A stretch of DNA of 64,000 bases from NCBI GenBank assembly GCA_900769665.1, contig CAAGHL010000070.1, forward strand, positions 13,620 to 77,619, in the 5' to 3' direction. Below the pieces are notes generated by a model. The model was given only the letters and a program-made list of their open reading frames with translations. It had not been told where the DNA came from and searched no databases. The translations under genes were made by a program, and so were the position numbers. This DNA comes from Clostridia bacterium (GTDB taxonomy: Bacteria; Bacillota; Clostridia; Christensenellales; CAG-314). Each line of letters opens with the position of its first letter. Within the stretch, counting starts at the first letter, position 1. This document shows positions 5,335 through 19,614 of the stretch, piece after piece.

Positions 5335-5460
5335 ATTTCTTTCCTCCGTTTCAAGTAGTGTCCGCACGACGGCAATGTCGAACGGGCGGATGCCGCAACA
5401 TTTTGCGACGAATACCATATATATAATAATTTACTCGTGGAAAATATTGCAACAAAAATA

Positions 5461-5509
5461 AAAAAAATGTCGCAAGGTTATTTGGTTGTATTCCGTAACC
5501 TTACGACAT
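5461..5509 (-). terminator. Rho-independent terminator after the 5528..5944 gene
   Basis: Minus strand: ATGTCGTAAGGTTA, loop, TAACCTTGCGACAT, then T7. Confidence 0.7.
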
Positions 5510-5527
5510 TCTTTATTTTACCAATTA

Positions 5528-5944
5528 CTATCTTGCAGCCGCAATGCCTGCTTTTGTTCCGTAGTAAATCATTTTTCCGGATTGGGTAATTGTCCAATCG
5601 CTTTCTTTACTATCCTTGTCTTTTTCGGCGTAGGACTTAACTTTGTCCCATGCTGTCTTGGCTTGATCGGCACTTGCAAAGTAAATAACCGTTACGTGGT
5701 CAACCTTTGCGTTGTCGCCTTCGCCAGTGGACTTGGTTCCGGAAATAACAGCCTCTACACCCTTAACTCCTACAAGAGTCAAAGCAGCAGGAACAACATT
5801 TTCGTCTTTTGCCGCGGTGTAACCGTTCTTCTTCAAGGCTTCAATCGCTTTGTCGGGATTGGAGTTGGGTGCGCAAGCAACGAGCATTGCCAAGGACATA
5901 ACCACTACCAATGCAAGAGCTGCAATCTTTGCAAACTTTTTCAT
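5528..5944 (-). CDS. Hypothetical lipoprotein
   Basis: Signal peptide with lipobox (MKKFAKIAALALVVVMSLAMLVAC). 138 aa. Confidence 0.65.
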   Translation of the reverse strand: MKKFAKIAALALVVVMSLAMLVACAPNSNPDKAIEALKKNGYTAAKDENVVPAALTLVGVKGVEAVISGTKSTGEGDNAKVDHVTVIYFASADQAKTAWDKVKSYAEKDKDSKESDWTITQSGKMIYYGTKAGIAAAR

Positions 5945-6094
5945 AAATTTCCTCCTACATTTTTTTTTAGGACAACAAATAGTCTACTACAATTTCTGTC
6001 AAAAGTCAATACCTGACTTTCAAATAGTAGGCGACTTCCCGAAAAATGAACAAATCTCCTTCAAATGTTCATTTTGTACTCGACGTCCTGTTTA

Positions 6095-8914
6095 TCACTT
6101 TACTTTACCATATACAAACGTAAGCGTCGCACTGCCATTCTTTGGCGTAAGGTGACATTCGTGCGGAAGCGGTCCGCATGCGTTACTGCCAAGTCCCGAC
6201 ATAAACAAGTCTGCGGTAAGGTAAGTTCCGTCGCGTTTAGGCAGTTCGAAGTCATGTTTTGCCCCCGCTATTTGCTTGGCGGAATACGGCAACGCCGAGA
6301 ATGACGTCATGCCTTCCACACGCACTAAACGTTTGCCATCGGACACTTCGGCGTAGTCCGATAGGTAGTGACTGCCGCTTTCCTGTGGCTTGACGTAGTG
6401 ATGATATTGTTGCGAAATTGTCGATACGTATTGCTTTTTTTGTGCAAACTCGTACATGTCGCAGTAAGTCTCCGTCGGTCCGTATGCACGGTAAACCAAC
6501 TTGTCAAATTCAAGCGGAAGTTTGGTCGTCCACCCGAGTCTGGGCAAAAACGGCAATGTGCCGCAGTCATCAAAACGATACTCGACATCAAGTTGTACTG
6601 CACTCTCGACAAATGAGTAAACCAAGTGCATTGCGACAACGGGCTTTTTTGTACAGTATGCGACACACACGTCAAACTGCACGGTTTGCCCGACAATGTG
6701 GTAACTTTTGGCTTGACTAACGGCGCTGTCAATGTAAAAATCGTCAAATTTGCCTTGTACATTACGGTCGTTGTCTATCGGAGCGCGATATATCGTGGCT
6801 TCCAATGCGCCGTACTTTTCGCCGTCAACGACAACGGAACACACCTGTCCGCTACACTTGTCAAACACCACGGTCATAAAATTATTTTGTGCCGTTATGT
6901 ATCTGTCGCCGTCGATAATTTGCGTATCGACGCTTTTGCGAACGGGTGGATTTTGCGGCTTACTGCGCAGTTGCGATTGGTAGACCAATCTGTTCCCTTC
7001 GTAGTAGCGTACCGCAATATCTTCTCCTTGCACGGCAATAATTTGGCTTTCACGCGGCTGTAAGTTCACCTCGGTAACGATTGTTTTGCCGTCACACTCG
7101 ATTTCCAACTTTCCGTTTGCCGCAAGGAAAAAGCGTTTGTTGTACACGGTCAAGATATCGCCGCTCAATTCCGCCGTCACGGGACTGTAATAGTGTTGCA
7201 TTTGTAGTGTGCCGCTTTTTACTTCCCTATCGGCGGACACAATGCCGTCACAACAAAAGTTGTCGTCGTGCCTACGTTCGCCGAAGTCGCCGCCGTAACA
7301 CAAACCGCGCTTGCCGTAACGCACGCCGTGATCAGCCCACTCCCACACAAAGCCGCCGATAAAGCGGTCATTGCTTTCCATCAGTTGCCAGTACTCGCGC
7401 ATTTCGCCCGGTCCGTTGCCCATAGCGTGCGCGTACTCGCACAGCACAAGCGGACGATGTTCCTTTACGTCGGAAAGATATTCTTCCGACATCCACTCCA
7501 CCGTCGGATACATTCGGCTTACCATGTCGACGGGCGTTGTGTAGTAGGTGTCGTCCGACCTATTGCAATACCACAGTGACTCGTAATGGAAGGGGCGATT
7601 GTCCAACTTTTTTGCTGCAACGAGTGCCTCGGCAAGGTACTTGCCCCAGCCCGATTCGTTGCCGAGCGACCAAATGACAACGCACGCATGATTTTTGTTG
7701 ACGACAATGTTGCACAGTTGCCGCTCCATTATTTGGTGAGCAAAGTCTTGGTCGTCCATCAGCGCACCAAACACCGAATCATCGTAGCCGTCCGCCATCA
7801 TAACCGTGCCATGAGATTCCATGTCGCTTTCGCTCATCACGTACAAGCCCTGTTCGTCGCACATTTCGTACAAAAGCGGACTTGACGGGTAATGCGATGT
7901 ACGCAGAGCATTGACGTTTAGCGACTTCATCAGCAAAATATCCTTACGCATGTCCTCGTAGCTTACCGCAGCACCCTTGTCGGGGTGGAAGTCGTGACGG
8001 TTGACGCCGTACAGTTTGACAGGTTTACCATTGACAAGGAAAATGCCGTCCTTCACTTCCGAAGTACGCACGCCTACTCGCTCGAATATCTTTTCACCGT
8101 TGGCAGACAACGTAAGGTCGTACAGATTAGGCGTTTCGGCACTCCACAGCTTAACGTCGGGGACGAGGATTGATACCGTTTGGCTCGGCTTTGCCACAAA
8201 ACTCCTACCGTAGAAATCCAGCGAGATTTCCACGTCGGAATTGTTGGTAAACAAAATTTTGCCGTCCGTACCGCAAAAATCGGTGTTTATGGTGTAGTCG
8301 GTGATGTGTTCACTCGGACGCATAAGCATGTATACACTACGGAAAATGCCCGTAAACCGCCACTTGTCTTGATCTTCGAGGTAGCTACACATGTTCCATT
8401 TTAGCACCAGTACGTCGATTTTGTTGTCGCCGACATGCACGAAGTTTGTAACGTCAAACTCACTAATGCGGTGAGACACGTTGGAATATCCCACAAATTT
8501 GCCATTGACATACAGGTAGAAACAGCTGTCCACGCCCTCGAACACCATTGAAACAAACTCGTCTACGCTACTAATCGTAACGTTGCGGCTGTAGTGATAC
8601 GCAGGATTGGGCTTGAGTATGTAGGGTGGATCATACGGAAACGGATAGGCTACGTTTGTGTATTGAAAGTAGTCCAAACCGTAGTACTGCACGCAACTTG
8701 GCACATCGATCCGCTTGGTGGGCGTTTTTGTCCAAAAATCGCCGACATCCAACACCGTGTCGTAGGCTTGTATCGTCCACTTGCCGTCAAGATCGACAAA
8801 TCTTTTACTTTTTGTGCGAAAACCGCGTTTTTGTCCGTCCTCAAACGGAACATAGTAACATCTTTTAGGCAAGGTGTTGATTGAACAGCCTTGAGCGTAA
8901 TATGGTAGAAGCAT
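6095..8914 (-). CDS. Glycoside hydrolase family 2 beta-galactosidase (LacZ type)
   Basis: Motifs WSLGNESGWG and CEYAHAMGNGPG, with a C-terminal beta-gal small-chain-like region. ORF 6095..9025 trimmed to ATG 8912-8914 behind GGAGGT. Confidence 0.9.
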   Translation of the reverse strand: MLLPYYAQGCSINTLPKRCYYVPFEDGQKRGFRTKSKRFVDLDGKWTIQAYDTVLDVGDFWTKTPTKRIDVPSCVQYYGLDYFQYTNVAYPFPYDPPYILKPNPAYHYSRNVTISSVDEFVSMVFEGVDSCFYLYVNGKFVGYSNVSHRISEFDVTNFVHVGDNKIDVLVLKWNMCSYLEDQDKWRFTGIFRSVYMLMRPSEHITDYTINTDFCGTDGKILFTNNSDVEISLDFYGRSFVAKPSQTVSILVPDVKLWSAETPNLYDLTLSANGEKIFERVGVRTSEVKDGIFLVNGKPVKLYGVNRHDFHPDKGAAVSYEDMRKDILLMKSLNVNALRTSHYPSSPLLYEMCDEQGLYVMSESDMESHGTVMMADGYDDSVFGALMDDQDFAHQIMERQLCNIVVNKNHACVVIWSLGNESGWGKYLAEALVAAKKLDNRPFHYESLWYCNRSDDTYYTTPVDMVSRMYPTVEWMSEEYLSDVKEHRPLVLCEYAHAMGNGPGEMREYWQLMESNDRFIGGFVWEWADHGVRYGKRGLCYGGDFGERRHDDNFCCDGIVSADREVKSGTLQMQHYYSPVTAELSGDILTVYNKRFFLAANGKLEIECDGKTIVTEVNLQPRESQIIAVQGEDIAVRYYEGNRLVYQSQLRSKPQNPPVRKSVDTQIIDGDRYITAQNNFMTVVFDKCSGQVCSVVVDGEKYGALEATIYRAPIDNDRNVQGKFDDFYIDSAVSQAKSYHIVGQTVQFDVCVAYCTKKPVVAMHLVYSFVESAVQLDVEYRFDDCGTLPFLPRLGWTTKLPLEFDKLVYRAYGPTETYCDMYEFAQKKQYVSTISQQYHHYVKPQESGSHYLSDYAEVSDGKRLVRVEGMTSFSALPYSAKQIAGAKHDFELPKRDGTYLTADLFMSGLGSNACGPLPHECHLTPKNGSATLTFVYGKVK

Positions 8915-9021
8915 TTTTACCTCCATGGTAGCAGTATCTGCGACATCAGGCGTTGAAGTTTGACGAATTACAGCCCAAAATGTCACGAAAAATCGCTTAC
9001 GTATTATATTTTTTCCGACAG

Positions 9022-10212
9022 TCAATTCTCTTGCGAAGTGTATTCGCAGGACTGCCTATCCACAGTTGCGACCACGTACACATTGGGATGCAGTTCCGCA
9101 ACTTTACTTTGCAAATAATTGCGAAGTTCGCCGTCGGACATTGCACAGTCGAAGGTCACAGCCACGTCAAATATCAAATTGATGCGTTGCGGCCCCTTTA
9201 CCATGCGGAAGTCATGCACGCCGAAACGCTCGTCGAGTTGCGCCACAATTTGCTTTACTTCCTTGCGGTAGCCGTCCAACACGGGGTCGCCGACAACAAT
9301 GGGGTCCATGTGTATCACCAACGTTACATCGGTATGCTCGGCAAAGTCCCGCTCGATATTGTCCACCAATTCGTGGCTTGTCATCACGTCCACCGCCGCG
9401 TCCACTTCCACATGCACGCTTGCGTAAAACTTGTTCGGACCGTAGTTGTGCACTTCTAGGTCGTGGATGCCCTTTACTCCGTCAAATTGCATGATGCGGT
9501 TGTATATGCCGTCGACAACTTCTTTGTCGGGAGCTTTGCCTAGCAGTTTGCTCATTGTGTCGCGCAGTATGCCTACGCCGGCAACGCCGATAAGCACTGC
9601 CACCGCCAAGCCGACAATGCCGTCCAAGTACACAAAACCCGTGTATTTGGTGACAAGTACCGACGCTAAAACGCCGAAAGTGGCACACGAGTCGGACAAA
9701 CTGTCCGTTGCGGTTGCTTTCAACAATTCACTGCCGTAGGTGTTGCCAAGTTTGCGATTGAACAAAAACATCCACAGTTTAACCGCAATGGATACGCCCA
9801 ATACCCCGACAGTCCACCAACTGAATTCCGAAGCCGTCGGCGAAATAATCTTGTCTATACTCTCTTTTGCCAGTTGCAAGGCAAGCACGGCAACTATCAC
9901 GCCTACGACCAATGCCGAAACGTACTCGATACGCTGATGTCCGTAAGGATGGTCTTTGTCGGCTTTTTTGCCTGCCAACTTGAAGCTGACAAGCGAAATA
10001 ACGTTGCTTCCGCAGTCGGTAAGGTTGTTGATACCGTCTGCAAGCGCAGACACCACGCCGAACATTAGGCCTATCGCCATCTTTGAAACGGCAAGCAATA
10101 TGTTTAGTATTATGCCTACGGTGCCGCTCAACTTTCCGACTTGTTGTCGTACCGTGCCGTTTTGCGTTTCGGCGTAGTTTGGCACGAATAGTTTTAGTAA
10201 CAGTTTTGTCAT
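9022..10212 (-). CDS. Cation diffusion facilitator (CDF) family metal efflux transporter
   Basis: Six hydrophobic segments, DHPYGHQRIEY, and a C-terminal cytoplasmic domain. The ORF-track start at 10221 is TTG; the first ATG is 10210-10212. Start uncertain by 3 codons. Confidence 0.85.
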   Translation of the reverse strand: MTKLLLKLFVPNYAETQNGTVRQQVGKLSGTVGIILNILLAVSKMAIGLMFGVVSALADGINNLTDCGSNVISLVSFKLAGKKADKDHPYGHQRIEYVSALVVGVIVAVLALQLAKESIDKIISPTASEFSWWTVGVLGVSIAVKLWMFLFNRKLGNTYGSELLKATATDSLSDSCATFGVLASVLVTKYTGFVYLDGIVGLAVAVLIGVAGVGILRDTMSKLLGKAPDKEVVDGIYNRIMQFDGVKGIHDLEVHNYGPNKFYASVHVEVDAAVDVMTSHELVDNIERDFAEHTDVTLVIHMDPIVVGDPVLDGYRKEVKQIVAQLDERFGVHDFRMVKGPQRINLIFDVAVTFDCAMSDGELRNYLQSKVAELHPNVYVVATVDRQSCEYTSQEN

Positions 10213-10401
10213 GAAATTCAACCTACGTATTATTTTTTTGTGATTTTACCGTCAACGCCAACCACATTAGCGATACCAATCTGCACAGCACAATCGTGTG
10301 TAAAATTAGCGACGGAAACACCGCTAAATAGCAATTTGCCTTCCGCACAATGGCAGAAAGCAAATAGTATTCTTTTGATAGTAACGGCGAGTTTTTGCCG
10401 T

Positions 10402-11832
10402 CTATTTTGTCTTGTTGAAGTAGTCTTGCACTATCTTGTACAGCATGCCCGTGTCGTCGTATTCGCCGGGATTGGTTGCTCCGACAGTGCCGACCTTGCT
10501 CCAAGCCTCGGCAATTTCCTCATATGTTGCCGTTGTAATGTCCACTTTCAGTTCGCCTGCGCCAAGACACATTTTGTTGACGTACAATCCCCAACTGTTG
10601 TCCCAATCGCCTACGGAGATAGCTTTGTAATTCCAAATTGTCCAGCCAAAACCTCTCTTGTCGTACTCGGCAAGCCATTTGTCCCATTCCGCCTCGTTGT
10701 CAAAGAAAGTAAATTCCCCTATTAGATACGGGACATCGAACGCCTTGAACGAATATGTAAGGTCTTGCGCCCAATAAAACATATCGTAACTGATGGTGCC
10801 GCTGTTCCAATTGTACATATGCAATTGGTACATGACATTGTTCCAACCAAACAACGACGGATCGATGCAACTGCCAAACATCCAACAAAATTCCACGGAT
10901 ATTAGGTGGTTTTGCGTGTCTACATCCCGTATTGCGCGGTACAATTTGTCCATCACTGCCGCTTGCTTGCGCGTAGTAGACGGCGTATTGCGGTCGACGG
11001 GTTCGTTCATCAGGTCATATGCGCCTATCGTTTGGGACAAGTCTTTCCGCACGGTGGCGTAACGCTCGGCAATTGTTTTCCATAACAAGCACATGTCTTC
11101 CTGTGCTTTTTCGTTGGTCCAAAAGTCGATTGTACGCAAGCCGCTGTGCTCGTAACCGTTTTGTCCGCCTTCTACTCCGTGCATATCCAATATAGCGTAC
11201 AAGCCGTTTGCCTTGCATTGATCCAAGAACCAGTCCAATCGTTTGTACCACTCGTTTTTCATCACGTAGTTGTTGTTGGCGTCCAACTCCATAAAGTTAC
11301 CAAAATACATCGGCAACCGCACAGTGTTGAAACCGAGTTGCTTGACGTAGACAAAGTCGACTTCCTGTATAAAGTTATCTTGGTAAATATCCACAAGCTT
11401 GTCGGCTTTTTCCTTGCCGAAACGCTCGGTAAGAATGTCCAATTCGTCCTGATAGAAACTTTCCTTGTAACTTTCCACAATTCCGTTTTCGTTTACTTTG
11501 GCAGGTTTTCCGTCTTTATCGAGCTCCACGCCTACGCTGTGCGTGCAAAGCCAACCCTCGGTAATCAACCAGTTGCCGAAGTTAATTCCGCGAAATGTTA
11601 CGCGATTGCCGTCGGCGTCGTACACGCCTCTGCCGTTTGCACGCAACGGTTGGTCGACGGCAGTTTCCCCCGTCCATTGTATTTTGTCAGGTACGGGCGC
11701 GTAGTAGTTGTCGGCAAAAACAGCGACTTTTACAAGCAATATACCTGTAATCAGTGCAAATACAAGCACTATTGCCACCACTACAATCAACACGCGTTTC
11801 AATACGGAACGCTTTTGTTTTGCCTCTTCCAC
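10402..11832 (-). CDS. Glycoside hydrolase family 5 (cellulase/mannanase-like) with N-terminal membrane anchor
   Basis: TM helix VLIVVVAIVLVFALITGILLV, FNTVRLP, and catalytic NEP (YDLMNEPV). Start set to GTG 11830-11832 behind AAAGGAGA; the ORF-track start at 11895 has no RBS. Confidence 0.8.
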   Translation of the reverse strand: MEEAKQKRSVLKRVLIVVVAIVLVFALITGILLVKVAVFADNYYAPVPDKIQWTGETAVDQPLRANGRGVYDADGNRVTFRGINFGNWLITEGWLCTHSVGVELDKDGKPAKVNENGIVESYKESFYQDELDILTERFGKEKADKLVDIYQDNFIQEVDFVYVKQLGFNTVRLPMYFGNFMELDANNNYVMKNEWYKRLDWFLDQCKANGLYAILDMHGVEGGQNGYEHSGLRTIDFWTNEKAQEDMCLLWKTIAERYATVRKDLSQTIGAYDLMNEPVDRNTPSTTRKQAAVMDKLYRAIRDVDTQNHLISVEFCWMFGSCIDPSLFGWNNVMYQLHMYNWNSGTISYDMFYWAQDLTYSFKAFDVPYLIGEFTFFDNEAEWDKWLAEYDKRGFGWTIWNYKAISVGDWDNSWGLYVNKMCLGAGELKVDITTATYEEIAEAWSKVGTVGATNPGEYDDTGMLYKIVQDYFNKTK

Positions 11833-11992
11833 AATATCTCCTTTGACGTATAACACACGTGCGCGCGGCGATATACCGCAACCCAAACGCCGCATTTTTG
11901 CACACTAAACAACGCAAAATGTAACGGAATTTGTAATACGTATTGATTTTTTTAGTACAATTCCTATATTTAGTCAACGCCTTGCAAAACGT

Positions 11993-13459
11993 CTACTCTG
12001 CTTTATCATTGCAGTCCGTTGCGGTGTTGTCAACTTGTTCTGCGGCTTGTTGCTCCGTAGCGACATCGACGTTACCTTCCACATCGGCGTTAATTTGCAA
12101 CAACTCCTTGCGACGAAATTCCCCTGCTTGCTTACGCACGATTACCGACGGAACGAACACAAACGCCGCCGCCACTGCGGAAAACAAAAACAATTCAAAC
12201 GGGTAAACTTTGTCGCCGATATTGTATCCGCTGTTTGACGTAATCAAATCGTTGTAGGATTTCAATTCTTCGCCGAATCCGTTGATAATAAGCGGCGTAA
12301 ACAGACTTGCCAATATCATCGGGACGGTAACGTAAATGATGATACGCACACCTTGGAAGCAGCCTGCCTTGTCCTTTGGCGTGTAGTCGCGTGCCGACGC
12401 GTTAAACAAGCCCGCAACAAGCAAACTTGCACCCTCGATAAGCGTCCCGCCGACGACAAACAACGCAAAAGTCAATGTTTTATCTCCACCGCAAAACTTG
12501 ATTAAGTACACAATCAGTCCGCCCAAAACGCCTGCCGCCGCAACGGGGTAGAAAAACTTTTCTTTGCCGAATTTGTCCATCAGTTTGCCGCCGATAACGG
12601 CAATCACCGCCGACAGCAACACCACAAGCGCAAGCGGCAACACATATCCGTCGCCGAAACCTAAGGTGTATTGCAAAAGCACAATCATGTACGGTTGCCA
12701 CAGTTGCATGGAAAGTCCGCTAAACATCATGCCGAACAAACACACGTAAATCATCTTATGTTTGACAAAACTTTTCGGACGAAATCCGTAAGCCACTTCG
12801 GCAAAGTATTTTCCGCTACGATCGGGGCGCAACACGGGGCTGTCCTTCATTAAAAACAATCCCACAACGCCGGACAGCGACGTCATGCCGCCAAGTAGCA
12901 AAAAGAATGTCGTCCAGTTACCGTTTTGCGTCAATCCGTCAAAGCCTACAAAAATAATCATCAATGCGGCAACAGGCATAATGGACAATACCACGTCCAC
13001 AAAGCCGCGGTTGGTGATGTCCGTAACGTCGGTAACCCATGCGGAAAAAGCCGCATCGTTGGAAAGCGAGCCGAACACCGTCATTACGCAGTCCATAATA
13101 ACAAACACCACTACCACGGTCACGACGCTTTCCGCCGAAACGTGGTTGTTGCCAAACAGCGCAAAAGCCGCCGTCACCAAGCCCCACACAATGTAGCCGA
13201 AGCACACAAAAACCTTGCGTTTGCCTACACGGTCGGTCAGTACTCCGCCGAAAATGGACACCAACGCCGCAACGACTGCACTTGCCGCAACGGTAGCCGA
13301 ACTTGCCCATGGTTCCATGGTAATGTTCTTTTGTATGTAGGTGGAAAAATAGATATTCTCCACAATCCAAGCAATCTGTCCCATAAGACCGAATATTGCC
13401 ACGGACAACCACACTTTCCAACCGAGTTTGTTGGACTTGCGTACTACTACTTCCGCCAT
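11993..13459 (-). CDS. MFS transporter (sugar:cation symporter-like)
   Basis: About 12 hydrophobic segments and the LTDRVGKRK loop. Start ATG 13457-13459 behind GGAGGT. Acidic C-terminal tail. Confidence 0.8.
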   Translation of the reverse strand: MAEVVVRKSNKLGWKVWLSVAIFGLMGQIAWIVENIYFSTYIQKNITMEPWASSATVAASAVVAALVSIFGGVLTDRVGKRKVFVCFGYIVWGLVTAAFALFGNNHVSAESVVTVVVVFVIMDCVMTVFGSLSNDAAFSAWVTDVTDITNRGFVDVVLSIMPVAALMIIFVGFDGLTQNGNWTTFFLLLGGMTSLSGVVGLFLMKDSPVLRPDRSGKYFAEVAYGFRPKSFVKHKMIYVCLFGMMFSGLSMQLWQPYMIVLLQYTLGFGDGYVLPLALVVLLSAVIAVIGGKLMDKFGKEKFFYPVAAAGVLGGLIVYLIKFCGGDKTLTFALFVVGGTLIEGASLLVAGLFNASARDYTPKDKAGCFQGVRIIIYVTVPMILASLFTPLIINGFGEELKSYNDLITSNSGYNIGDKVYPFELFLFSAVAAAFVFVPSVIVRKQAGEFRRKELLQINADVEGNVDVATEQQAAEQVDNTATDCNDKAE

Positions 13460-13486
13460 ACTGACCTCCACAAAGGTTATCGCTTT

Positions 13487-13515
13487 ATTGTACCACACAT
13501 CTATTTATATTTCAA
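13487..13515 (-). promoter_or_regulatory. Sigma-A promoter candidate for the MFS gene
   Basis: Minus strand: TTGAAA, 17 nt, TACAAT, with TGg extended -10. Confidence 0.5.
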
Positions 13516-13654
13516 GTTTTATCGAAAAATTTAGCACCGTACAACGAATTTTATTTCGATTTGCAAGTAGAAAATCAGGAATATGCAAGCAATCAATCTG
13601 TTCGATAAGCAAACGAACTCGTTTAATGCGACAGTCACAGCATTACCTTTTCGG

Positions 13655-13855
13655 GAACGCCTGATGCTATATCGCCTCGGCAATGTCCCACGAAAAACGG
13701 TCTGATACCTCCCTCCAGTCGGAGCAAAGAAGTAATAGTCCGCACTCATTTTTATGCGCCCTCCTTCCGAGGTTTTCGTTTGGACACCGCCTCGCCTCCC
13801 ATTGCAAATAGGTCGACGTAATTAAAATGTCGCTGCGTGGTAACACCGTGACTGT
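13655..13855 (+). repeat. Degenerate, rearranged copy of the B-type intergenic repeat
   Basis: Shares gaacgcctgatgct, tagtccgc..tatgcgcc and atgtcgctg.gtgg.aaca blocks with 16502-16658. Interrupted by about 60 nt. Confidence 0.4.
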
Positions 13856-14045
13856 CACATATCCAACTCTTGGAGAAAATGAGATTTTTCATCGACAAAC
13901 GTTGGTAGCTTCAACTTATCGAACCGATTTTAACTTATCTTTCAAGCAAATACACCTTTCAAAACTTCATAGTAAATCGACGCAAAGCCAATCGATTTAA
14001 CCAATCAATTTTTCGCCGCATCTTTCACTCGTTGCCCCACCATTC

Positions 14046-14225
14046 CACTACCCCGACCACCCACCCCTCAAGGTCAAAGAACTTTATTATAAAGTAGCAT
14101 GCGAGGCGCGACCTACTTTGTCGCAACGTGGCAATCTCGCGGAAGCACCATTGTCGCAAGGTTGCTTTCCAGCAGATCCCCACGTCGCGACAAGTACAGT
14201 CGCTCCTCGGGATGACACTTTATTG
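14046..14225 (+). repeat. A-type intergenic repeat, full-length copy (A1)
   Basis: The left part (cactaccccga ccaccc..ctcaaggtcaaagaactttatta) matches 16491-16500 plus 16659-16712. The right part, 14126-14216, is the reverse complement of 18910-18994. Confidence 0.8.
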
Positions 14226-14236
14226 CATACTAACAC

Positions 14237-14390
14237 TCACTTAATCATTTTCTACCAACTAAGTGTTTGGTGGGCAAGGTGTTGCCCCACGGCGACATCG
14301 GAGCGTAGGCACATACAACTGAGAGCGGTCAACAAGTGATATTGCTCTACGCGGAGCGAGCATCAGGCGTTCGCAGTGGGACAATGCCTT
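14237..14390 (-). repeat. B-type repeat, inverted copy (B2), MITE-like
   Basis: The reverse complement aligns to 16502-16658 at about 80% identity over about 100 nt (ctgcgaacgc.tga.gctcgctccgc..agagcaata ... gcctacgctccgatgtcgc.gtg.ggcaac). Confidence 0.7.
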
Positions 14391-14492
14391 GACCGACAAA
14401 CACGTTTACTGCCAATCGCCCTCTACTTGCCTCCGCGGCGAGCGGCGAGAAAGGGGTGCGGGGAAAACGACGTTCGTTTGCCCCGCATACGC

Positions 14493-14521
14493 TTGACGTC
14501 AGTAAAATAATACAATATAAT
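14493..14521 (+). promoter_or_regulatory. Sigma-A promoter candidate for pepF
   Basis: TTGACG (14493-14498), 17 nt, TATAAT (14516-14521). Confidence 0.6.
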
Positions 14522-14614
14522 ATATCTAATATTTGTCCGAAGCGACCCGTCCGCCACGGTATGTCGCGCCACAAAAATGGCAACACTTATTTGGACAAAG
14601 AAGGAGCTAATAGT

Positions 14615-16399
14615 ATGAGTTACACCAACCGCAATGAAATCCCCGCAAAATATACTTGGAACCTCGGCGACATCTTCGCCACACCAGACAAATGGGAAGA
14701 GGCTTTCAACCAACTGTCCAAGGAGTACACCGCTTTGTGCGACTTCCAAGGCAAGCTTGCAAACCGCGACAGTTTGCTTGAATTTTTCAAGCTGTCCGAC
14801 AAAATCGACCTCAAATTGGAGCAACTGTACTGCTACGCTTCCATGGCTTACAACGAGGACAGCCAAGACTCCGTACGTCAAGCACGTTTCAGCAAAATTT
14901 ACGGCTTACTCAACAAGTATGACGCCGCAACAAGCTTTGTTTCTCCGGAATTGTCGGCAATCCCCGACGAGCAACTGAAAGCATTCATTGCCGATCCCGC
15001 TTTTTCCGACTACGACGTCATCCTTACCAACCTACTTGAAGGCAAAGCGCACATTTTGTCCGAAGCGGAAGAAAAACTCATGGCAAAAGTCGGCACGTTC
15101 TCCGAGCAATTCCACGAAGTTTTCAATCGCTTGGACAGCGGCGACATCAAGTTTGACAAAATAACCGTCAACGGCGAGGAAGTCCAACTCGGTCACGGCA
15201 CATACAGTATGCTGTTGCAAAACAAGGATCAAGCTGTGCGTAAACTTGCGTTTGAAACCTACTACAAGGCATATGTCGACGTAATAAATACGCTTGCCGG
15301 CGTTTACGAAGGCAGCGTAAAGGCGGACTGGTTCCGCGCCGAAGCTCGTCACTTCAACTCCACAATGGAAATGGCACTGTTCTACGAACATGTAGACAAA
15401 GCCGTGTACGACAACCTTATCAAATGCACGCACGAGTCGCTTGCGCCACTACATCGCTACATTGCGCTACGCAAAAAACTGATGGGTTTGGAAACGCTCA
15501 ACATGTACGACTTGTACGTGTCCATATTTGAAGACGCCGACATCTCCTGCGAATACGAAGAGGCTTGCGAGCTTGTGTTGAAAGGCTTGGCACCCCTCGG
15601 CGAAGATTACCTAAAAGTCGTGCGCGAAGCATTTGCCAACCGCTGGATTGACGTACACGAAACGCCGACAAAGCGTAGCGGCGCATACAGCATGGGCGTA
15701 AAGGGCGTACACCCCTACATGCTACTCAACTACCAAAAAACCACGCACGACATCTTTACAATCGCGCACGAAATGGGACACTCCATGCACAGCTATTACA
15801 GCGAGTTGACGCAACCGCAAGCAAAAAGCGACTACAAGATTTTCGTTGCCGAAGTTGCTTCCACATGCAACGAAGTGTTGTTGCTAAAATATTTGCTAAA
15901 AACGGAAACCGATCCCGCCGTCAAAAAATACTTGCTGCAATACTACTTGGATATGTTGCGCACCACGCTGTACCGTCAAACAATGTTTGCCGAGTTTGAA
16001 CAAATTTCCCACGACATGGCGGAAAAGGGCGTACCTTTCACCACCGAAGCACTGTGCGAAAAATACTTGGCACTCAACAAAATGTACTACGGCGAAGCAG
16101 TCCACCACAACGAAGAAATCAAGTACGAGTGGGCGCGTATACCGCACTTTTACCGCGCATTTTACGTGTACAAGTACGCTACCGGTATCATTTCGGCAGT
16201 GTGCATAGCGGAAAAAATTCTCAGCGAAGGCGCACCCGCATTGGCGGCTTACCGCAAGTTTTTGACGCTTGGCGGCAGCATGGACCCCGTGTCGGAATTG
16301 AAAGTGGCAGGCGTAGACCTTACGACGGAAGAACCCTTCAAAATCGTTGCAAAGAGCTTCGAAGACACGCTCAACCAATTGGAAGAACTGTGTAAGTAA
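14615..16399 (+). CDS. pepF: Oligoendopeptidase F (M3B metallopeptidase)
   Basis: HEMGH zinc site (IAHEMGHSMH) and a 594-aa length typical of M3B. ORF 14456..16399 trimmed to ATG 14615 behind GAAGGAG. Confidence 0.9.
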   Translation: MSYTNRNEIPAKYTWNLGDIFATPDKWEEAFNQLSKEYTALCDFQGKLANRDSLLEFFKLSDKIDLKLEQLYCYASMAYNEDSQDSVRQARFSKIYGLLNKYDAATSFVSPELSAIPDEQLKAFIADPAFSDYDVILTNLLEGKAHILSEAEEKLMAKVGTFSEQFHEVFNRLDSGDIKFDKITVNGEEVQLGHGTYSMLLQNKDQAVRKLAFETYYKAYVDVINTLAGVYEGSVKADWFRAEARHFNSTMEMALFYEHVDKAVYDNLIKCTHESLAPLHRYIALRKKLMGLETLNMYDLYVSIFEDADISCEYEEACELVLKGLAPLGEDYLKVVREAFANRWIDVHETPTKRSGAYSMGVKGVHPYMLLNYQKTTHDIFTIAHEMGHSMHSYYSELTQPQAKSDYKIFVAEVASTCNEVLLLKYLLKTETDPAVKKYLLQYYLDMLRTTLYRQTMFAEFEQISHDMAEKGVPFTTEALCEKYLALNKMYYGEAVHHNEEIKYEWARIPHFYRAFYVYKYATGIISAVCIAEKILSEGAPALAAYRKFLTLGGSMDPVSELKVAGVDLTTEEPFKIVAKSFEDTLNQLEELCK

Positions 16400-16405
16400 A
16401 AATAC

Positions 16406-16445
16406 AACGTCGATGCGCTTGTCGTGTCGACGTTCTTTTTTGTTT
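16406..16445 (+). terminator. Rho-independent terminator after pepF
   Basis: AACGTCGA, loop, TCGACGTT, followed by CTTTTTTTGTTTTG. Confidence 0.8.
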
Positions 16446-16501
16446 TGTTCCCACCGACTTGTTTGCAAGATATGGTCGGTTTGCACGAACCACTACCCCG
16501 A

Positions 16502-16658
16502 AAATCGCCTCGCTATTACCACGCTGCGAACGCTTGAAGCTCGCTCCGCACAGAGCAATATAGATATAGTCCGCTTTCAATCTTATGCGCCTACGCTCCG
16601 ATGTCGCTGTGTGGCAACAACTCGGCTCCACCCCTTCGGGAAAGGCAATGATTTTTTT
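16502..16658 (+). repeat. B-type repeat, forward copy (B3), apparently inserted into an A-type repeat
   Basis: It separates cactaccccga (16491-16501) from ccacccctcaaggtc (16659-), which are contiguous at 14046-14075. GA is present at both junctions. The ends aaatcgcct and aggcaatgattt form an imperfect terminal inverted repeat. Confidence 0.65.
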
Positions 16659-16735
16659 GACCACCCCTCAAGGTCAAAGGACTTTATTACAACGCACGAC
16701 CTATTGTTGCAATCCGTTTGAAAGCAACCTTTGCA
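16659..16735 (+). repeat. A-type repeat, partial copy (A2)
   Basis: gaccacccctcaaggtcaaaggactttattacaacgcacgacctattgttgcaa matches 14055-14126. Confidence 0.7.
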
Positions 16736-16758
16736 AAACTATAACATTTCCTTAAAAC

Positions 16759-16812
16759 TGCTCAATATTTTTGCCGAATATTGCTCAATGAAAACGCCGA
16801 ATATTGCTCAAT
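16759..16812 (+). promoter_or_regulatory. Three direct repeats of TGCTCAAT phased exactly 23 bp apart (candidate regulator-binding array)
   Basis: TGCTCAAT at 16759-16766, 16782-16789 and 16805-16812. The last two sit within identical 17-mers, GCCGAATATTGCTCAAT (16773-16789 and 16796-16812). Confidence 0.5.
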
Positions 16813-16840
16813 CCTTGACAAATGGCGAAAAAAACTAACG

Positions 16841-16869
16841 TTGACAAGTAGGTCTTACTACAATATAAA
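16841..16869 (+). promoter_or_regulatory. Orphan near-consensus sigma-A promoter
   Basis: TTGACA (16841-16846), 17 nt, TATAAA (16864-16869). There is no plus-strand CDS downstream before the hairpin at 17082-17110. Confidence 0.5.
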
Positions 16870-16875
16870 GCCGAC

Positions 16876-17115
16876 ATCGACAATAAAGTTACCGTCAACA
16901 ATTGTCGGGATACTCGCAAAGGGCGCTCTTGTTTCCCCAAGGGCAGGGGAAGGCATAGATGCGAGGGCGTTCGCCGCAAGGACTGCGGCTCGGCTGAGGA
17001 CACGTTTTACACTTCGGCACTACTTGATCGGCTTAATGAGCCAAATACATAGTAGGCAATGTTATTTTCATTATGCAAGAAGCCCTCTTGCGGATTTTCC
17101 GCAAGAGGGCCTTGA
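16876..17115 (+). ncRNA. Candidate ~240-nt orphan transcript (sRNA or leader remnant); hypothetical
   Basis: Bounded by the orphan promoter and a 13-bp-stem hairpin. Local hairpins include CCGACA..TGTCGG and GCCGCA..TGCGGC. The only coding potential is a 12-codon micro-ORF (16959-16997) behind GGGGAAGG. No known RNA family recognised. Confidence 0.2.
17082..17110. terminator. Strong hairpin terminator downstream of the pilin-like gene (possibly bidirectional)
   Basis: GCCCTCTTGCGGA, TTT, TCCGCAAGAGGGC. On the minus strand it is followed by a T-rich tract. Confidence 0.75.
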
Positions 17116-17172
17116 TTGTTGGATCGAGTTGTCAATTGCGATAGAATACTCTATCGATTGTCGGGCAAACAC

Positions 17173-18810
17173 CTATTTGGAAACGATGTACCACGTGTCG
17201 CTACCAATTACTTCCGAAGTTGTTTTGCAACCTTCGCCGAGCAGAATTTTGCCAGTATAAGCGTTCTCAGGATCAACTGGTGTAACGCCGGGATTGTAAT
17301 TTTTGAATTTACCACCATTTACAGTAATCGTGCAACCTGCAGTGGCGCTATCTTCATGATTCAAAACATAAGATATTTTGTTGCTTGGTGTCGCAGTTTC
17401 AAAAGTACCACCATTGATAGTAACAGTTGCCTTACTTCCGCTAGAGCGTGCGGTACACACATAGATACAAGAGGTTTGTTCTGATGTTCCGTAGAAGTGA
17501 CCACCGTTGATTGTCAACTTGCCGTAGTTTCCTGCACGTACAGCACTTGTTACTTTGTTGGTATATGTCTTGTCCGATCCAATAACAGCACCGGTTTGGG
17601 CTTCACTACTATCATTTATGGTCAATTTACCACCCGAACCACCGATGTAGAATACAGATCCGTTGTTGGGCTTAACGCCATCAGCATATTCAAGTTTAAC
17701 AGTATGTCCGTTCAAATCAATGACAAATTTTTTGCCTGACATGTAGATTTCATCTGTAACGGTAACATCGGCAATAAATTTCAAATATGCGCCTTTCTTT
17801 AATTTTTCAATCTTTAATGCTTGCTCGCCGGTTGCGATCAAATAAGGACTTTCTTCCGTGCCAAGACCACCAACGAAATTGTTAACATCATCTTTTACGA
17901 TATCCACTTTCTTATCTTTCTTTACTTCAGCAGGAATAGTTGTAGCATTTTTAACCACATCCAATACGCTATCATCAGTAGCTGCAACAAGATTTATTTT
18001 TGCACCTTCTTCTGCTACAATTTTAACATCACCAGCACCATTATCAGTAGGAGATACAAGAACAACGTTTACTACAGCTTGCTTAGTAATCTCAAGTTTT
18101 CCTTCCTTAATTGTAAGGTTGCCACGAACTTCACCCTTTTCATAATAAGAGTGTGGAGCAACAGCAGTAATATTAACTTTATCAACAGTGCCATGGTGTT
18201 CCACACTATCAGTTACGGCGTCAATCGTAAGGTTGCCACCCTTTGTACGAATAACAACATCTTGCGCATTTGTATTTGCCACGTACTTAAGTTCGTCAAC
18301 TGTAGTTTCACCTGCATCGAAACCAACCTTTACTTCGAGAGGCTTTTCGGCTGAAGTTTCAATAGTTTCACCTGCCCAGTAGATAGAATACTTTTGGTTT
18401 TCTACTGCGGGAATTTCCTTGCTAAGGAATTGCCAATATTGATAATCCTTGACGTCCTTGTTGGTTTGCGTGTCGGGAATACCCGTGATACCTTTTTCCG
18501 TTTTGTAAACAAAGCAGTAGTTGACGCTGTCCCACAAAATTTCGTGTTCGCTTACGCTTGCGCTGATTTTTGCAACGTCAAAACCTGCGTTTTCCTTGAC
18601 TGCGCCGAGTACGTCGTAGACCGTGTCGTACTTTTCGGTGCTGAGTGCGATTGCCTTGTTGAGGTTAGACACAAGTGCCTCGTCCTTGGCTTGGTTTGCC
18701 TTGCTGATAAGACTGCTGAATGTAGGGATAAGTACTGCCGCAAGCAATGCTATTACGGCAACAACAATGATCAGTTCCACCAAAGTGAAACCTTTTTTAC
18801 TATTTTTCAT
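17173..18810 (-). CDS. Large type IV pilin-like protein (prepilin N-terminal cleavage/methylation domain plus ~510-aa C-terminal domain)
   Basis: N-terminus MKNSKKG/FTLVELIIVVAVIALLAAVLIPTF. The C-terminal third has repeated strands KLTINGGHFYG, TVTINGGTFET and ITVNGGKFKN. ATG 18808-18810 behind AAGGAGAA. Confidence 0.8.
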   Translation of the reverse strand: MKNSKKGFTLVELIIVVAVIALLAAVLIPTFSSLISKANQAKDEALVSNLNKAIALSTEKYDTVYDVLGAVKENAGFDVAKISASVSEHEILWDSVNYCFVYKTEKGITGIPDTQTNKDVKDYQYWQFLSKEIPAVENQKYSIYWAGETIETSAEKPLEVKVGFDAGETTVDELKYVANTNAQDVVIRTKGGNLTIDAVTDSVEHHGTVDKVNITAVAPHSYYEKGEVRGNLTIKEGKLEITKQAVVNVVLVSPTDNGAGDVKIVAEEGAKINLVAATDDSVLDVVKNATTIPAEVKKDKKVDIVKDDVNNFVGGLGTEESPYLIATGEQALKIEKLKKGAYLKFIADVTVTDEIYMSGKKFVIDLNGHTVKLEYADGVKPNNGSVFYIGGSGGKLTINDSSEAQTGAVIGSDKTYTNKVTSAVRAGNYGKLTINGGHFYGTSEQTSCIYVCTARSSGSKATVTINGGTFETATPSNKISYVLNHEDSATAGCTITVNGGKFKNYNPGVTPVDPENAYTGKILLGEGCKTTSEVIGSDTWYIVSK

Positions 18811-18909
18811 ATGAAATATTCTCCTTAAGATTACGCCACTATGAATCCATATGTGGTCTTACTAATACTCTGTTTTGCACATTTGCCTCAAATTGACACA
18901 TTGAATTAT

Positions 18910-18994
18910 GTCATCCCGAGGAGCGACATTTGCGACGTGGGGATCTGCTGGAAAGCACCCTTATTACAATGGCGCTTCCGCGAGATTGCCACGT
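18910..18994 (-). repeat. A-type repeat, inverted partial copy (A3)
   Basis: The reverse complement matches 14126-14216 (about 78 of 85 aligned bases, one 6-nt indel). Confidence 0.8.
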
Positions 18995-19170
18995 CAGCCG
19001 ACGTTCACGGCTTCCTCGCAATGACAATCACACGCAACGCAACCATTTTGTCGGCGTCTTTGCCATAATGTCATTACTTACAAATGTACACGTTTTTTGC
19101 ATACGCATCGATTTTTCGCACGCAAAAATACCCTTCACCAAGGTATGGTGCGGGTTACAGGAAGAATATT

Positions 19171-19614
19171 TCAGCACAGCAGCACTTGCAAAATGCTGTA
19201 CAAATTTTGCTTATCTAACGGCTCGATTTTCCAACGGGGGGGGGTAGAGCCGTTGTCGCAAAGGCGTTCGTACGCCTTGCGCTTTTTGCCGCCAAGGTAG
19301 TTGACAATGCCGTCAACGGTCATCATTGCCACAATCAAGGCTTGCGCCCACAGCACAAACTCCACCACGGTAAGCGGAATGATTGCGCTTACACCGCCGG
19401 CAAACATAACCGTCATTGCATGCGCGTAGACGTCCTTGCCGAGCAGGTTGCACACGGATTGTTGCAAAATGCCCTCGTTGGTGCACAGGCACAGTATTGC
19501 AAAGGTGAAGAAAAACAAAATGGCATGCAAAACGTTGACCGTCTTGCGACTTTTGCGCTCCACAACGACGGACAACACGATGTTTATCAACATGTAAACA
19601 ACCAAGATTGCCAT
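19171..19614 (-). CDS. Hypothetical small membrane protein
   Basis: ATG 19612-19614 behind GAGGAG; four hydrophobic segments. Contains a C9 tract (19236-19244) near the 3' end. Confidence 0.5.
   Translation of the reverse strand: MAILVVYMLINIVLSVVVERKSRKTVNVLHAILFFFTFAILCLCTNEGILQQSVCNLLGKDVYAHAMTVMFAGGVSAIIPLTVVEFVLWAQALIVAMMTVDGIVNYLGGKKRKAYERLCDNGSTPPRWKIEPLDKQNLYSILQVLLC

What the first reader, a model, noticed from the sequence alone, without database searches (positions are those of the whole stretch)
14237..16658. A second, ~150-bp MITE-like repeat pair flanks pepF alone, and one copy is inserted inside the other repeat type
The reverse complement of 14237-14390 aligns with 16502-16658 at about 80% identity (ctgcgaacgc, gctcgctccgc, agagcaata, gcctacgctccgatgtcgc blocks). 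pepF therefore sits between inverted copies. At the right side this element separates cactaccccga from ccacccctcaaggtc, which are contiguous at 14046-14075 in the left A-type repeat. GA occurs at both junctions, and the element ends (aaatcgcct... / ...aggcaatgattt) form an imperfect terminal inverted repeat. That is the signature of a small non-autonomous element that transposed into another repeat. No such family is known to me for this sequence.
Basis: partly seen in the sequence, partly recalled or inferred. Interest (0 to 1): 0.55.

Follow-up and report, generated by a model that had tools for sequence, protein, structure and literature searches.

The report
Hairpin-forming dispersed repeat family around pepF
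The two inverted ~150-bp repeats around pepF are real copies of a previously undescribed family of small, non-coding, hairpin-forming repeats. The family is scattered through the genome of an uncultured gut Clostridia species and comes and goes between strains, so it is a new example of a familiar kind of bacterial "junk" repeat, not a classical transposon-derived MITE.

Summary
16515-16622 matches the reverse complement of 14277-14385 at about 80-82% identity (E about 1e-20). A third, diverged copy lies at 13667-13810.

These "B" elements belong to a dispersed family. About 25 more copies sit in gut-metagenome contigs of the same lineage, next to housekeeping genes. None lies at pepF in sister species.

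Conspecific strains L038 and L040 carry the uninterrupted A-type repeat (..CCCCGA|CCACCCACCCCTCAAGG..) exactly where the window has B_right.

The element is not a classical MITE:
- The "GA" target duplication is not reproduced in other copies.
- The 25-30-nt arms are the variable part (74% identity) and the inner core is nearly invariant (96%).
- The arms co-vary to keep a hairpin: 93% of cells paired, 15 pairs changed on both sides, 0 of 500 shuffles as good.
- The hairpin favours one strand (73 G.U cells against 10 A.C).
- Copies are often nested and are swapped at orthologous sites between strains.
- No transposase was found, and there is no Rfam match.
- Orientation relative to genes is mixed.
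- Two of the three window copies lie upstream of the predicted promoters.

Best reading: a lineage-specific ERIC/bcr1/REPIN-like structured repeat that spreads without target duplication and recombines freely. pepF is not a cassette.

The parts
16502..16656 (-). B_right: the inserted B element. The main hairpin is 16507-16626, closed by an outer pairing AAATCGCCT / AGGCAATGATTT, followed by a T-run. The strand given is the one that folds best.
   Evidence: Covariance-model hit 16500-16640(-), 144 bits. Insertion limits come from the empty allele in L038/L040.
14242..14410 (+). B_left: a B element in the opposite orientation. The hairpin is 14261-14405, with a small extra hairpin and a TAATC..GATTA-type end. 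It lies about 85 nt upstream of the predicted pepF promoter.
   Evidence: Covariance-model hit 14259-14400(+), 139 bits. The orthologue in L035 scores 143.5 bits; arms 91% and core 99% identical. Hairpin limits. Promoter.
13667..13810 (-). B3: a diverged third family member with hairpin 13674-13796. Its stem is GTCCCACGAAAA / TTTTCGTTTGGAC. It sits inside the arms of an older member.
   Evidence: z = -3.6 on this strand. Covariance-model hit of 103 bits. Close relative at L019:4777-4920.
13628..13668 (.). 5' arm plus the AACGCCTGATGCT box of an outer ('level-1') family member whose core has been replaced by B3.
   Evidence: L035 has an intact diverged member here (L035:9482-9623, 66 bits). The window differs from just after CTGATGCT.
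13827..13858 (.). 3' arm (ATGTCGCTGCGTGGTAACACCGTGACTGTCAC) of the outer shell. It no longer matches the 5' arm, which suggests a recombinant origin.
   Evidence: (D9, I4).
14030..14092 (+). A1 repeat, uninterrupted copy (..ccactaccccgaccacccacccctcaaggtcaaagaactttatt..).
   Evidence: About 17 uninterrupted copies occur across the window and fetched loci.
16447..16501 (+). Left half of the A1 repeat that B_right interrupts.
   Evidence: Contiguous with the right half in L038/L040.
16657..16692 (+). Right half of the interrupted A1 repeat.
   Evidence: 94% identical to 14061-14092. Empty allele shown.
14089..14223 (.). A2 repeat: a second type of roughly 135-nt imperfect palindrome (GCATGCGAGG..CCTCGGGATGAC).
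   Evidence: Self-complementary at 73%; 14126-14217 matches 18909-18994 in inverted orientation at 87%.
18900..19030 (.). Second A2 copy in the window.
14615..16399 (+). pepF (oligoendopeptidase F, M3 family). It is a bystander gene, with its own promoter (14493-14521) and terminator (16406-16434).
   Evidence: Pfam match. Promoter and terminator scan.

Best explanation
B is a lineage-specific family of small (about 120-160 nt), non-coding, hairpin-forming dispersed repeats in an uncultured human-gut Clostridia species related to 'Candidatus Fimimonas' / CAG:1435.

Anatomy: each unit has a nearly invariant inner core, a variable apical loop and a 25-30-bp closing stem. The stem sequence drifts but stays complementary.

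Behaviour that is shown: units sit in intergenic DNA in either orientation. They often lie inside other repeats (A1) or inside older family members (nested 'Russian dolls'). They are gained, lost and exchanged between strains. B_right entered an A1 repeat downstream of pepF, and no target duplication recurs between copies at the A1 junction.

Mechanism, which is inferred: the element is non-autonomous. It spreads through a single-stranded hairpin form of one particular strand, handled in trans by an enzyme that recognises structure and core rather than conserved ends (as REP/REPIN-RAYT or IS200/IS605-type systems do). Ectopic recombination or gene conversion between copies then shuffles modules.

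pepF itself is not part of any mobile unit.
For: Dispersal:
- A metagenome scan with a 19-mer gave 21 contigs.
- nhmmer and the covariance model find about 25 copies in them, next to dnaN, guaA, xseA, an amylase gene, a thiamine-transporter gene and others.

Restriction to the lineage:
- No copies at pepF in species with 85-88% identical PepF.
- Only one true hit among 185,579 species-representative genomes.
- None in viral contigs.

Structure:
- 17 copies give a 34-bp consensus with 93.4% of cells paired and 15 pairs changed on both sides. The covariation score is 0.244 against 0.113 in shuffles, and 0 of 500 shuffles reach it. Slid controls pair at 29-49%.
- The fold is strand-specific: 73 G.U against 10 A.C cells, 4 conserved G.U positions against none, and mean MFE -52.9 against -43.5 kcal/mol.
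- The core without the loop is 95.8% identical, against 73.7% for the arms.

Insertion and turnover:
- The orthologous empty A1 site is in L038/L040; filled alleles are in the window and L043.
- Downstream of pepF there are 0, 1 or 2 copies among strains of one 90%-identity PepF cluster.
- Different family members occupy the same upstream position in L037, L043/L036 and the window.
- B3 in the window stands where L035 has a different member.

Nesting and recombination:
- Composite copies share a roughly 270-nt interior at 92-98% identity with sharp ends, yet have four different, self-complementary outer stems.
- L026 and L027 are chimeric.

No duplication recurs at the A1::B junction across copies. 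The family is non-coding: copies differ by 1-nt indels and the only ORF is strain-specific.
Against: - No mobilising enzyme was found. Only 64 kb of this genome plus short contigs could be examined, so trans-mobilisation is an inference.
- All A1::B composites share one junction. They may descend from a single insertion, with the pepF-downstream polymorphism arising by gene conversion from a paralogous A1::B copy rather than by fresh insertion. L043's left A1 half is indeed of a different paralogue type.
- The G.U bias counts related sequences, not independent events, and would equally fit a transcribed RNA.
- Most comparison loci are short-read metagenome contigs. Some chimeras (L026, L027) could be assembly artefacts at repeats.
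- Sharp outer termini exist for some subfamilies (AAATCG..GATTT) but not for all. In others the similarity decays gradually outwards.
Confidence: 0.55

Rival explanations
1. Classical MITE: a deletion derivative of a DDE-transposase insertion sequence. It would be mobilised in trans through its terminal inverted repeats and leave a fixed target-site duplication (GA or TA-like).
For: - Size, lack of coding capacity, inverted arms, many dispersed intergenic copies and a filled/empty polymorphism all fit.
- The outermost AAATC..GATTT / TAATC..GATTA ends recur in two subfamilies.
- MITE criteria are taken from PMC3184786.
Against: - No fixed duplication. GA occurs only in the window, there is none in L015, and L043 has a different junction.
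- The arms are the least conserved part and co-vary, and four unrelated outer stems surround an almost identical interior. A transposase that reads TIR sequence would not allow this.
- No IS or transposase domain in the 38 window ORFs and 10 neighbouring genes scanned.
Confidence: 0.12
2. A family of structured RNAs. These would be either small RNA genes, or cis-acting hairpins transcribed with neighbouring genes that affect mRNA stability or termination, as shown for ERIC, Correia and bcr1. The hairpin and core would be conserved by selection on the RNA.
For: - Strong covariation, wobble bias to one strand and a better fold on that strand.
- An invariant core between variable stems and loop is typical of protein-bound or catalytic RNAs.
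- About half of the copies lie upstream of a co-oriented gene.
- bcr1 and ERIC precedents for RNA-level compensatory change are described in PMC3184786.
Against: - Orientation is mixed: about 9 copies are upstream and co-oriented, and about 7 are in convergent or 3' regions.
- B_left and B3 lie upstream of the predicted pepF and MFS promoters, and B_right lies beyond the pepF terminator on the opposite strand.
- Copies are absent from, or swapped at, orthologous sites in conspecific strains and missing in sister species. This argues against a needed regulator.
- No Rfam family matches.
- No transcription data were available.
Confidence: 0.2
3. No dedicated mobility. In this reading an old set of palindromic repeats is maintained and reshuffled only by ectopic homologous recombination, gene conversion and template-switching at palindromes. 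This would keep arms complementary and homogenise interiors.
For: - Replacement rather than clean insertion at several orthologous sites.
- Chimeric copies.
- All A1::B composites share one junction, and L043's flanking A1 half is of another paralogue type.
- Five clustered transitions sit in one arm of B_left relative to L035, and that arm matches the L017-type arm.
Against: - It does not explain how copies reached more than 15 unrelated intergenic sites in the first place.
- It does not explain the conserved G.U (A/C) asymmetries, which palindrome correction would erase.
- Nearly identical interiors sit within unrelated outer stems.
Confidence: 0.12
4. pepF is carried by a composite element bounded by the two inverted copies, or was inverted by recombination between them.
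For: - The two copies are inverted around pepF.
- Relative to the sister species in L009 (pepF-GH5-CDF all on one strand), pepF is in the opposite orientation to GH5 and CDF in the window.
Against: - Conspecific strains keep the same gene order and pepF orientation with no downstream copy at all (L037, L039, L041, L042).
- The right-hand synteny (pepF, then the convergent 764-aa hydrolase gene) is shared with L010, which has no B copies.
- The copies are only about 80% identical and share at most a 19-nt exact stretch.
Confidence: 0.01

Closest known systems
ERIC / IRU elements of Enterobacteriaceae
   Same: - An imperfect palindrome of roughly 127 bp.
- Strictly intergenic, found in either orientation.
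- Copy number and positions differ between related strains.
- My recollection of Hulton 1991, Sharp 1997 and Wilson & Sharp 2006 (listed in PMC3184786): the centre of ERIC is well conserved, some copies carry internal insertions at fixed sites, and compensatory changes point to a folded single strand.
   Different: - Unrelated host: an endospore-forming gut Clostridia lineage.
- No sequence comparison with the ERIC consensus was run, so sequence relatedness was not tested.
- ERIC-type copies are described with TA flanks and target duplications (PMC3184786), which B lacks.
- The deep nesting and the mosaics with A1/A2 modules seen here are not an ERIC feature.
bcr1 repeat of the Bacillus cereus group
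   Same: - About 155 bp and found in Firmicutes.
- Non-conserved genomic distribution between close strains.
- Base-pair compensatory changes maintain a double-stranded structure (PMC3184786).
   Different: - bcr1 is flanked by 5-bp direct repeats at every copy and is known to be transcribed.
- B shows no fixed duplication, and no transcription data are available for it.
REP / REPIN elements with their RAYT (Y1 HUH) transposases, and BIME mosaics
   Same: - Structure-defined hairpin repeats with no target duplication.
- Clustered in mosaics with other short modules.
- A strand-specific single-stranded hairpin is the presumed substrate, which fits the wobble bias and the TSD-less insertion seen here.
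   Different: - REPs are 20-40-nt palindromes with a conserved 5' tetranucleotide, and REPINs are doublets of them with a poorly conserved centre.
- B is a single 120-160-nt hairpin whose centre is the most conserved part.
- No RAYT gene could be looked for outside the 64-kb window.
Correia (NEMIS/CREE), RUP and other bacterial MITEs
   Same: - Size, inverted arms and a long predicted stem-loop.
- Intergenic location and strain-to-strain presence/absence (PMC3184786).
   Different: - Those elements have conserved 26-bp-type TIRs and TA or other fixed duplications, and in several cases a recognisable parent IS.
- B has none of these.

Membership tests
MITE (IS-derived, DDE transposase) | Small (under about 400 bp) and without a transposase gene | tested here: met
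   Units are 120-160 nt. Copies differ by 1-nt indels in the core. The only overlapping ORF (72 aa at B3) is not called in the other strains.
MITE (IS-derived, DDE transposase) | Terminal inverted repeats | tested here: met
   Arms of 25-30 nt pair in every copy. The outermost AAATC..GATTT ends are seen in two subfamilies.
MITE (IS-derived, DDE transposase) | TIR sequence conserved among copies, or matching a parent IS | tested here: not met
   Arms are 73.7% identical against 95.8% for the core. Four unrelated outer stems surround one interior. No IS was found near any copy.
MITE (IS-derived, DDE transposase) | Fixed-length target-site duplication | tested here: not met
   Empty allele: CCCCGA|CCACCCACCCC. 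Window: GA..GA. L043: GA..A|CCC. L015: GAC|..|CGCCC with nothing duplicated. No recurrent direct repeat at the other copies.
MITE (IS-derived, DDE transposase) | Multiple dispersed copies and insertion polymorphism | tested here: met
   About 25 copies in unrelated intergenic regions. Empty and filled alleles occur in conspecific strains.
MITE (IS-derived, DDE transposase) | Cognate transposase elsewhere in the genome | not testable with these tools
   Only the 64-kb window and short contigs are available. No transposase domain in the 38 window ORFs scanned.
REP/REPIN-RAYT | Palindromes of 20-40 nt with a conserved 5' tetranucleotide, in doublets; RAYT gene present | tested here: inconclusive
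   Size and anatomy do not match: B is a single long hairpin with a conserved centre. The presence of a RAYT gene cannot be checked without the genome.
ERIC-like structured intergenic repeat (as a kind, not by sequence) | Imperfect palindrome of about 100-160 nt, intergenic, in both orientations, strain-variable, with compensatory changes | tested here: met
ERIC-like structured intergenic repeat (as a kind, not by sequence) | Sequence homology to the enterobacterial ERIC consensus | not tested
   No comparison with the ERIC consensus was run. Host phylum and sequence composition make homology unlikely.
Curated structured RNA families (Rfam 15) | Match to a covariance model | tested here: not met
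   No hit at gathering score in the window. No hit overlaps any B copy at E<=10 in 13400-19300, at E<=1 in 10 loci, or at E<=10 on the composite in L007.
Cis-regulatory leader / riboswitch | Consistent position in the 5' UTR of co-oriented genes | tested here: not met
   Orientation and position are mixed. The window copies lie outside the predicted transcripts.

The most novel reading that the evidence does not exclude
B elements, together with the A1/A2 modules, could represent a new kind of bacterial mobile hairpin element. In this reading the element is recognised by its invariant core. It inserts site-specifically and without target duplication into other repeats, and into the apex of its own relatives at the conserved ..CTGATGCT / CCGATGTC.. 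boxes. That would build nested 'Russian doll' hairpins. The intermediate would be a single-stranded DNA or RNA of one defined strand, and the enzyme, or possibly the element's own RNA, is not yet known.
Probability: 0.12. Interest if true: 0.7.

Novelty: new member of a known kind. Interest (0 to 1): 0.42.

Why it matters
- It adds a well-supported repeat family, with a covariance model and an exact empty/filled site, to a poorly studied and uncultured but common human-gut lineage.
- These repeats mark hot spots where intergenic DNA differs between strains that share a 90%-identity PepF cluster. This matters for strain typing, for metagenome assembly (contigs break at them) and for understanding rearrangements.
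- The anatomy is unusual: an invariant core, co-varying arms, one preferred strand and no target duplication. This makes the family a reasonable place to look for a hairpin-recognising mobilisation system, or for a structured RNA with a protein partner.

Tried and rejected
- Rfam, at gathering and permissive thresholds, on the window, ten loci and the composite element: nothing relevant. The only hits were a T-box (below gathering score) and a TPP riboswitch elsewhere in the loci.
- Small protein: the 72-aa ORF at B3 has no Pfam match, overlaps the MFS promoter, is frameshifted or stopped in the other copies, and is not called in the other strains.
- Riboswitch or leader: rejected on mixed orientation and on position relative to promoters.
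- Internal promoter or inverton: no sigma-70-like promoter in the core by inspection, and the loop is the variable part. Not pursued.
- Insertion of a conserved core into arbitrary palindromic targets: rejected because the arms of all copies share conserved sub-motifs (GUUG../..UAAU box, CGAAAA/UUUUCG) and are therefore homologous.
- 'Shell-only' units (arms joined without a core): none found. The only such junction is a lone 15-mer, AACGCCTGATGTCGC, upstream of the GH2 gene with no arms around it.
- pepF inversion or composite transposon: rejected.
- Genome-collection scan: only one true hit (L007). The other six were chance 19-mer matches in unrelated phyla.
- Viral contigs: no hits.
- Literature: nothing on repeats in this taxon.
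Full report
1. THE OBSERVATION

The pair is real. Window 14277-14385 (reverse complement) aligns with 16515-16622 at 79.8% over 109 nt, or 82% over 100 nt, with E about 3e-20 in the window's self-comparison. The 19-mer GCCTACGCTCCGATGTCGC occurs exactly twice in 64 kb, against 0.02 expected.

It lies at about 13667-13810, in the orientation of the right copy (66% identity, E 2e-9). A covariance model built later finds exactly these three copies in the 64 kb: 16500-16640(-) at 144 bits, 14259-14400(+) at 139 bits and 13667-13810(-) at 103 bits.

The surrounding 'A-type' repeats are also real. 14061-14092 matches 16661-16692 at 94%. 14126-14217 matches 18909-18994 in inverted orientation at 87%.

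2. THE ORGANISM AND THE FAMILY

- pepF (14615-16399, Peptidase_M3) has its closest named relatives in MAGs called Candidatus Fimimonas and 'Corallococcus sp. CAG:1435'.
- The NCBI lineage for Ca. Fimimonas is Myxococcota. Relatives nevertheless carry spoIIR, sleB and ypeB next to pepF, so this is an endospore-forming gut Firmicute.
- The window is a human-gut metagenome scaffold.
- A scan of 185,579 species-representative genomes with the 19-mer gave one true relative, L007, plus six chance hits.
- The same scan of metagenome contigs gave 21 contigs. nhmmer and the covariance model find about 25 family members in them, often two or three per contig.
- Their neighbours are ordinary chromosomal genes: dnaN, guaA, xseA, an alpha-amylase gene, a thiamine-transporter gene, jag and others. 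No neighbour is a transposase.
- pepF loci of sister species (PepF 85-88% identical) contain no copy.
- Viral contigs contain none.

B is therefore a dispersed, lineage-restricted intergenic repeat.

3. ANATOMY

Each unit is one long hairpin. Aligning 17 copies (A4) shows three zones:
- An inner core that is almost invariant: 95.8% mean pairwise identity outside the loop.
- An apical loop at 75% identity.
- Closing arms at 74% identity.

The arms differ strongly between copies yet remain complementary. Examples, written on the B_right + strand, are ATTACCACGCTGCGA/TCGCTGCGTGGTAAC, ATTGTCCCACCGCGA/TCGCTGTGGGGCAAC, ATTACCTTTTCGGGA/TCCCGCAAAGGTAAC and GTCCCACGAAAA/TTTTCGTTTGGAC.

On the 34-bp consensus structure:
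- 93.4% of cells pair, against 85.8% in shuffles and 29-49% when partners are slid.
- 15 pairs change on both sides.
- None of 500 shuffles reaches the observed covariation.

The fold is strand-specific. On the reverse complement of B_right's + strand there are 73 G.U cells against 10 A.C, and four conserved G.U positions against none. The mean MFE is -52.9 kcal/mol against -43.5 kcal/mol.

These counts are of related sequences, not independent events. Even so, the pattern says that a single-stranded form of one particular strand matters.

No Rfam family matches.

4. IS IT AN INSERTION?

Yes. Other strains of the species were fetched through members of the 90%-identity PepF cluster that holds the window's PepF; its representative is 98% identical to it. 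They show the same gene order (GH5-MFS-pepF-N_methyl protein).

L038 and L040 carry, downstream of the same pepF terminator, an uninterrupted A1 repeat:
..GGTTTGCACAAACCACTACCCCGA|CCACCCACCCCTCAAGGTCAAAGGACTTTATTACAAC..

The window reads ..CCCCGA[AAATCGCCTCGC ... GGCAATGATTTTTTTGA]CCACCCCTCAAGG..

L043 reads ..CCCCGA[AAATCGCC ... GGCAATAATTTTTTA]CCCACCCCTCATGG...

The A1 repeat is itself dispersed. About 17 uninterrupted copies occur across the window and the fetched loci.

5. WHY IT IS NOT A CLASSICAL MITE

(a) The 'GA' duplication is peculiar to the window copy. L015 has GAC|insert|CGCCC, which reconstitutes the uninterrupted CCCCGACCGCCC exactly. L043 has a different right junction.

(b) All interrupted A1 copies share one junction. 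They may therefore descend from a single event and have been copied as a composite, or by gene conversion. L043's left A1 half is of another paralogue type.

(c) The ends are the least conserved part and co-vary. Composite copies share a roughly 270-nt interior at 92-98% identity, with sharp limits at CGAAAAA|ATACC.. and ..GAAATG|TTTTCG. Yet they sit in four different self-complementary outer stems (GTCCCA/TTGGAC, CATATCA/TGATATG, ATGTCA/TGACAT, ATACCCAT/GTTGGGTA).

(d) Nesting is common:
- L007 has three concentric shells.
- In the window, B3 sits between the arms of an older member (13628-13668 and 13827-13858).
- In the near-identical strain L035 (96-98% nt over window 4120-15562), that position holds an intact but different member.

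(e) No transposase or integrase domain was found in 38 window ORFs or 10 neighbours of other copies.

MITE criteria are taken from PMC3184786.

6. TURNOVER BETWEEN STRAINS

Downstream of pepF the strains carry:
- no copy (L037, L039, L041, L042; spacer about 360 nt);
- one B3-type copy (L038, L040);
- two copies (L043);
- B_right only (the window).

L036 (PepF 98% identical) has neither B_right nor A1 there.

Upstream of pepF:
- The B_left position holds the same element in the window, L035, L038 and L039.
- It holds an L007-type composite in L037.
- It holds another member in L043 and L036.

L026 and L027 are chimeras of two subfamilies. This could be recombination or assembly error.

These intergenic regions are hot spots where family members are gained, lost and exchanged.

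7. WHAT IT DOES NOT DO

- Orientation relative to genes is mixed: about nine copies lie upstream of a co-oriented gene and about seven lie in convergent or 3' regions.
- In the window, the best promoter matches are TTGACG-17-TATAAT at 14493-14521 for pepF and TTGAAA-17-TACAAT at 13515-13487(-) for the MFS gene.
- B_left and B3 lie between the two, upstream of both.
- B_right lies beyond the pepF terminator (16406-16434), and its folding strand is antisense to pepF.
- A cis-regulatory role for pepF is therefore unlikely.
- The 72-aa ORF overlapping B3 is probably spurious.
- pepF is not a cassette. Strains without any downstream copy keep the same order and orientation.

8. MOST LIKELY MECHANISM

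Shown:
- A dispersed, non-coding repeat with a conserved hairpin and strand bias.
- Entry into A1 with no target duplication that recurs between copies.
- Frequent exchange between strains.

Inferred (overall confidence about 0.55 for the kind; lower for the enzyme class):
- Copies spread as a single-stranded hairpin recognised through structure and core, as in REP/REPIN-RAYT or IS200/IS605-type systems, which leave no target duplication.
- Ectopic recombination between copies then reshuffles modules.

Rivals, in order of weight:
- A transcribed structured-RNA family in the manner of ERIC or bcr1 (0.2).
- A classical MITE (0.12).
- Recombination only, with no dedicated mobility (0.12).

9. COMPARISON AND NOVELTY

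In behaviour B resembles ERIC and bcr1: an imperfect palindrome of about 130-155 nt, a strain-variable distribution and compensatory changes (PMC3184786). Its TSD-less, structure-defined nature resembles REP, REPIN and BIME mosaics.

It fails the TSD and conserved-TIR criteria for MITE membership. It matches no curated RNA family.

I found nothing published on repeats in this taxon.

I rate it a new member of a known kind, namely small structured dispersed repeats. Its unusual features are the invariant core, the nesting and the insertion into other repeats. These leave a modest chance (about 0.12) of a new mobilisation mechanism.

Noticed in passing
window 16770-16815 (and L036:2440-2560): Three direct copies of AATATTGCTCAAT, 13-20 nt apart, followed by TTGACA. 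In strain L036 the same block lies upstream of an AAA_14/DUF4143 ATPase gene that the window lacks at this place. It looks like an operator or promoter region left behind.
   Followed up: partly
window 49677-49714, 56651-56688, 16838-16856: The motif CTAACGTTGACG(A)AGTAGG occurs as a tandem pair at 49677-49714 and as an exact 38-nt inverted copy at 56651-56688. A single copy lies near 16838. This is another short dispersed motif of unknown role.
   Followed up: no
window 37956-38022 and 58474-58541: A 68-nt direct repeat (90% identity) in two intergenic regions 20 kb apart. It is unrelated to A or B.
   Followed up: no
window about 8939-8953, minus strand: AACGCCTGATGTCGC is the two conserved boxes that flank the B core, joined together. 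It sits about 35 nt upstream of the GH2 gene's ribosome-binding site, with no inverted arms around it, and is conserved in L035. It could be a remnant or a coincidence.
   Followed up: partly
window 13531-13749, minus strand: A 72-aa ORF with a good-looking RBS is called as a gene in the source assembly. It overlaps B3 and the predicted MFS promoter, has no Pfam match and is not called in the other strains. It is probably not a gene.
   Followed up: partly
L035:10180-10430 versus window 14400-14480: Strain L035 carries about 230 nt of extra sequence between B_left and the pepF promoter. It includes what appear to be repeated ..CTACTTGCCTCCGCGGC.. units.
   Followed up: no
L009, L010, L013 versus the window: Gene order around pepF differs between sister species: ypeB-pepF-GH5-CDF in L009, ABC-pepF-hydrolase in L010. 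The window also carries about 6 kb (N_methyl protein, DUF4037, TPR and hexapeptide-transferase genes) between pepF and the 764-aa hydrolase gene that is adjacent to pepF in L010.
   Followed up: partly
taxonomy: NCBI places Candidatus Fimimonas under Myxococcota, apparently inherited from 'Corallococcus sp. CAG:1435'. The sporulation genes next to pepF in relatives show it is a Firmicute.
   Followed up: partly
L034:8547-8647; L026:223-442: A TPP riboswitch lies upstream of the thiamine-transporter gene next to a B cluster (60 bits, above the gathering score). A T-box-like leader also scores 61 bits, below the gathering score. Both are ordinary features and unrelated to B.
   Followed up: no
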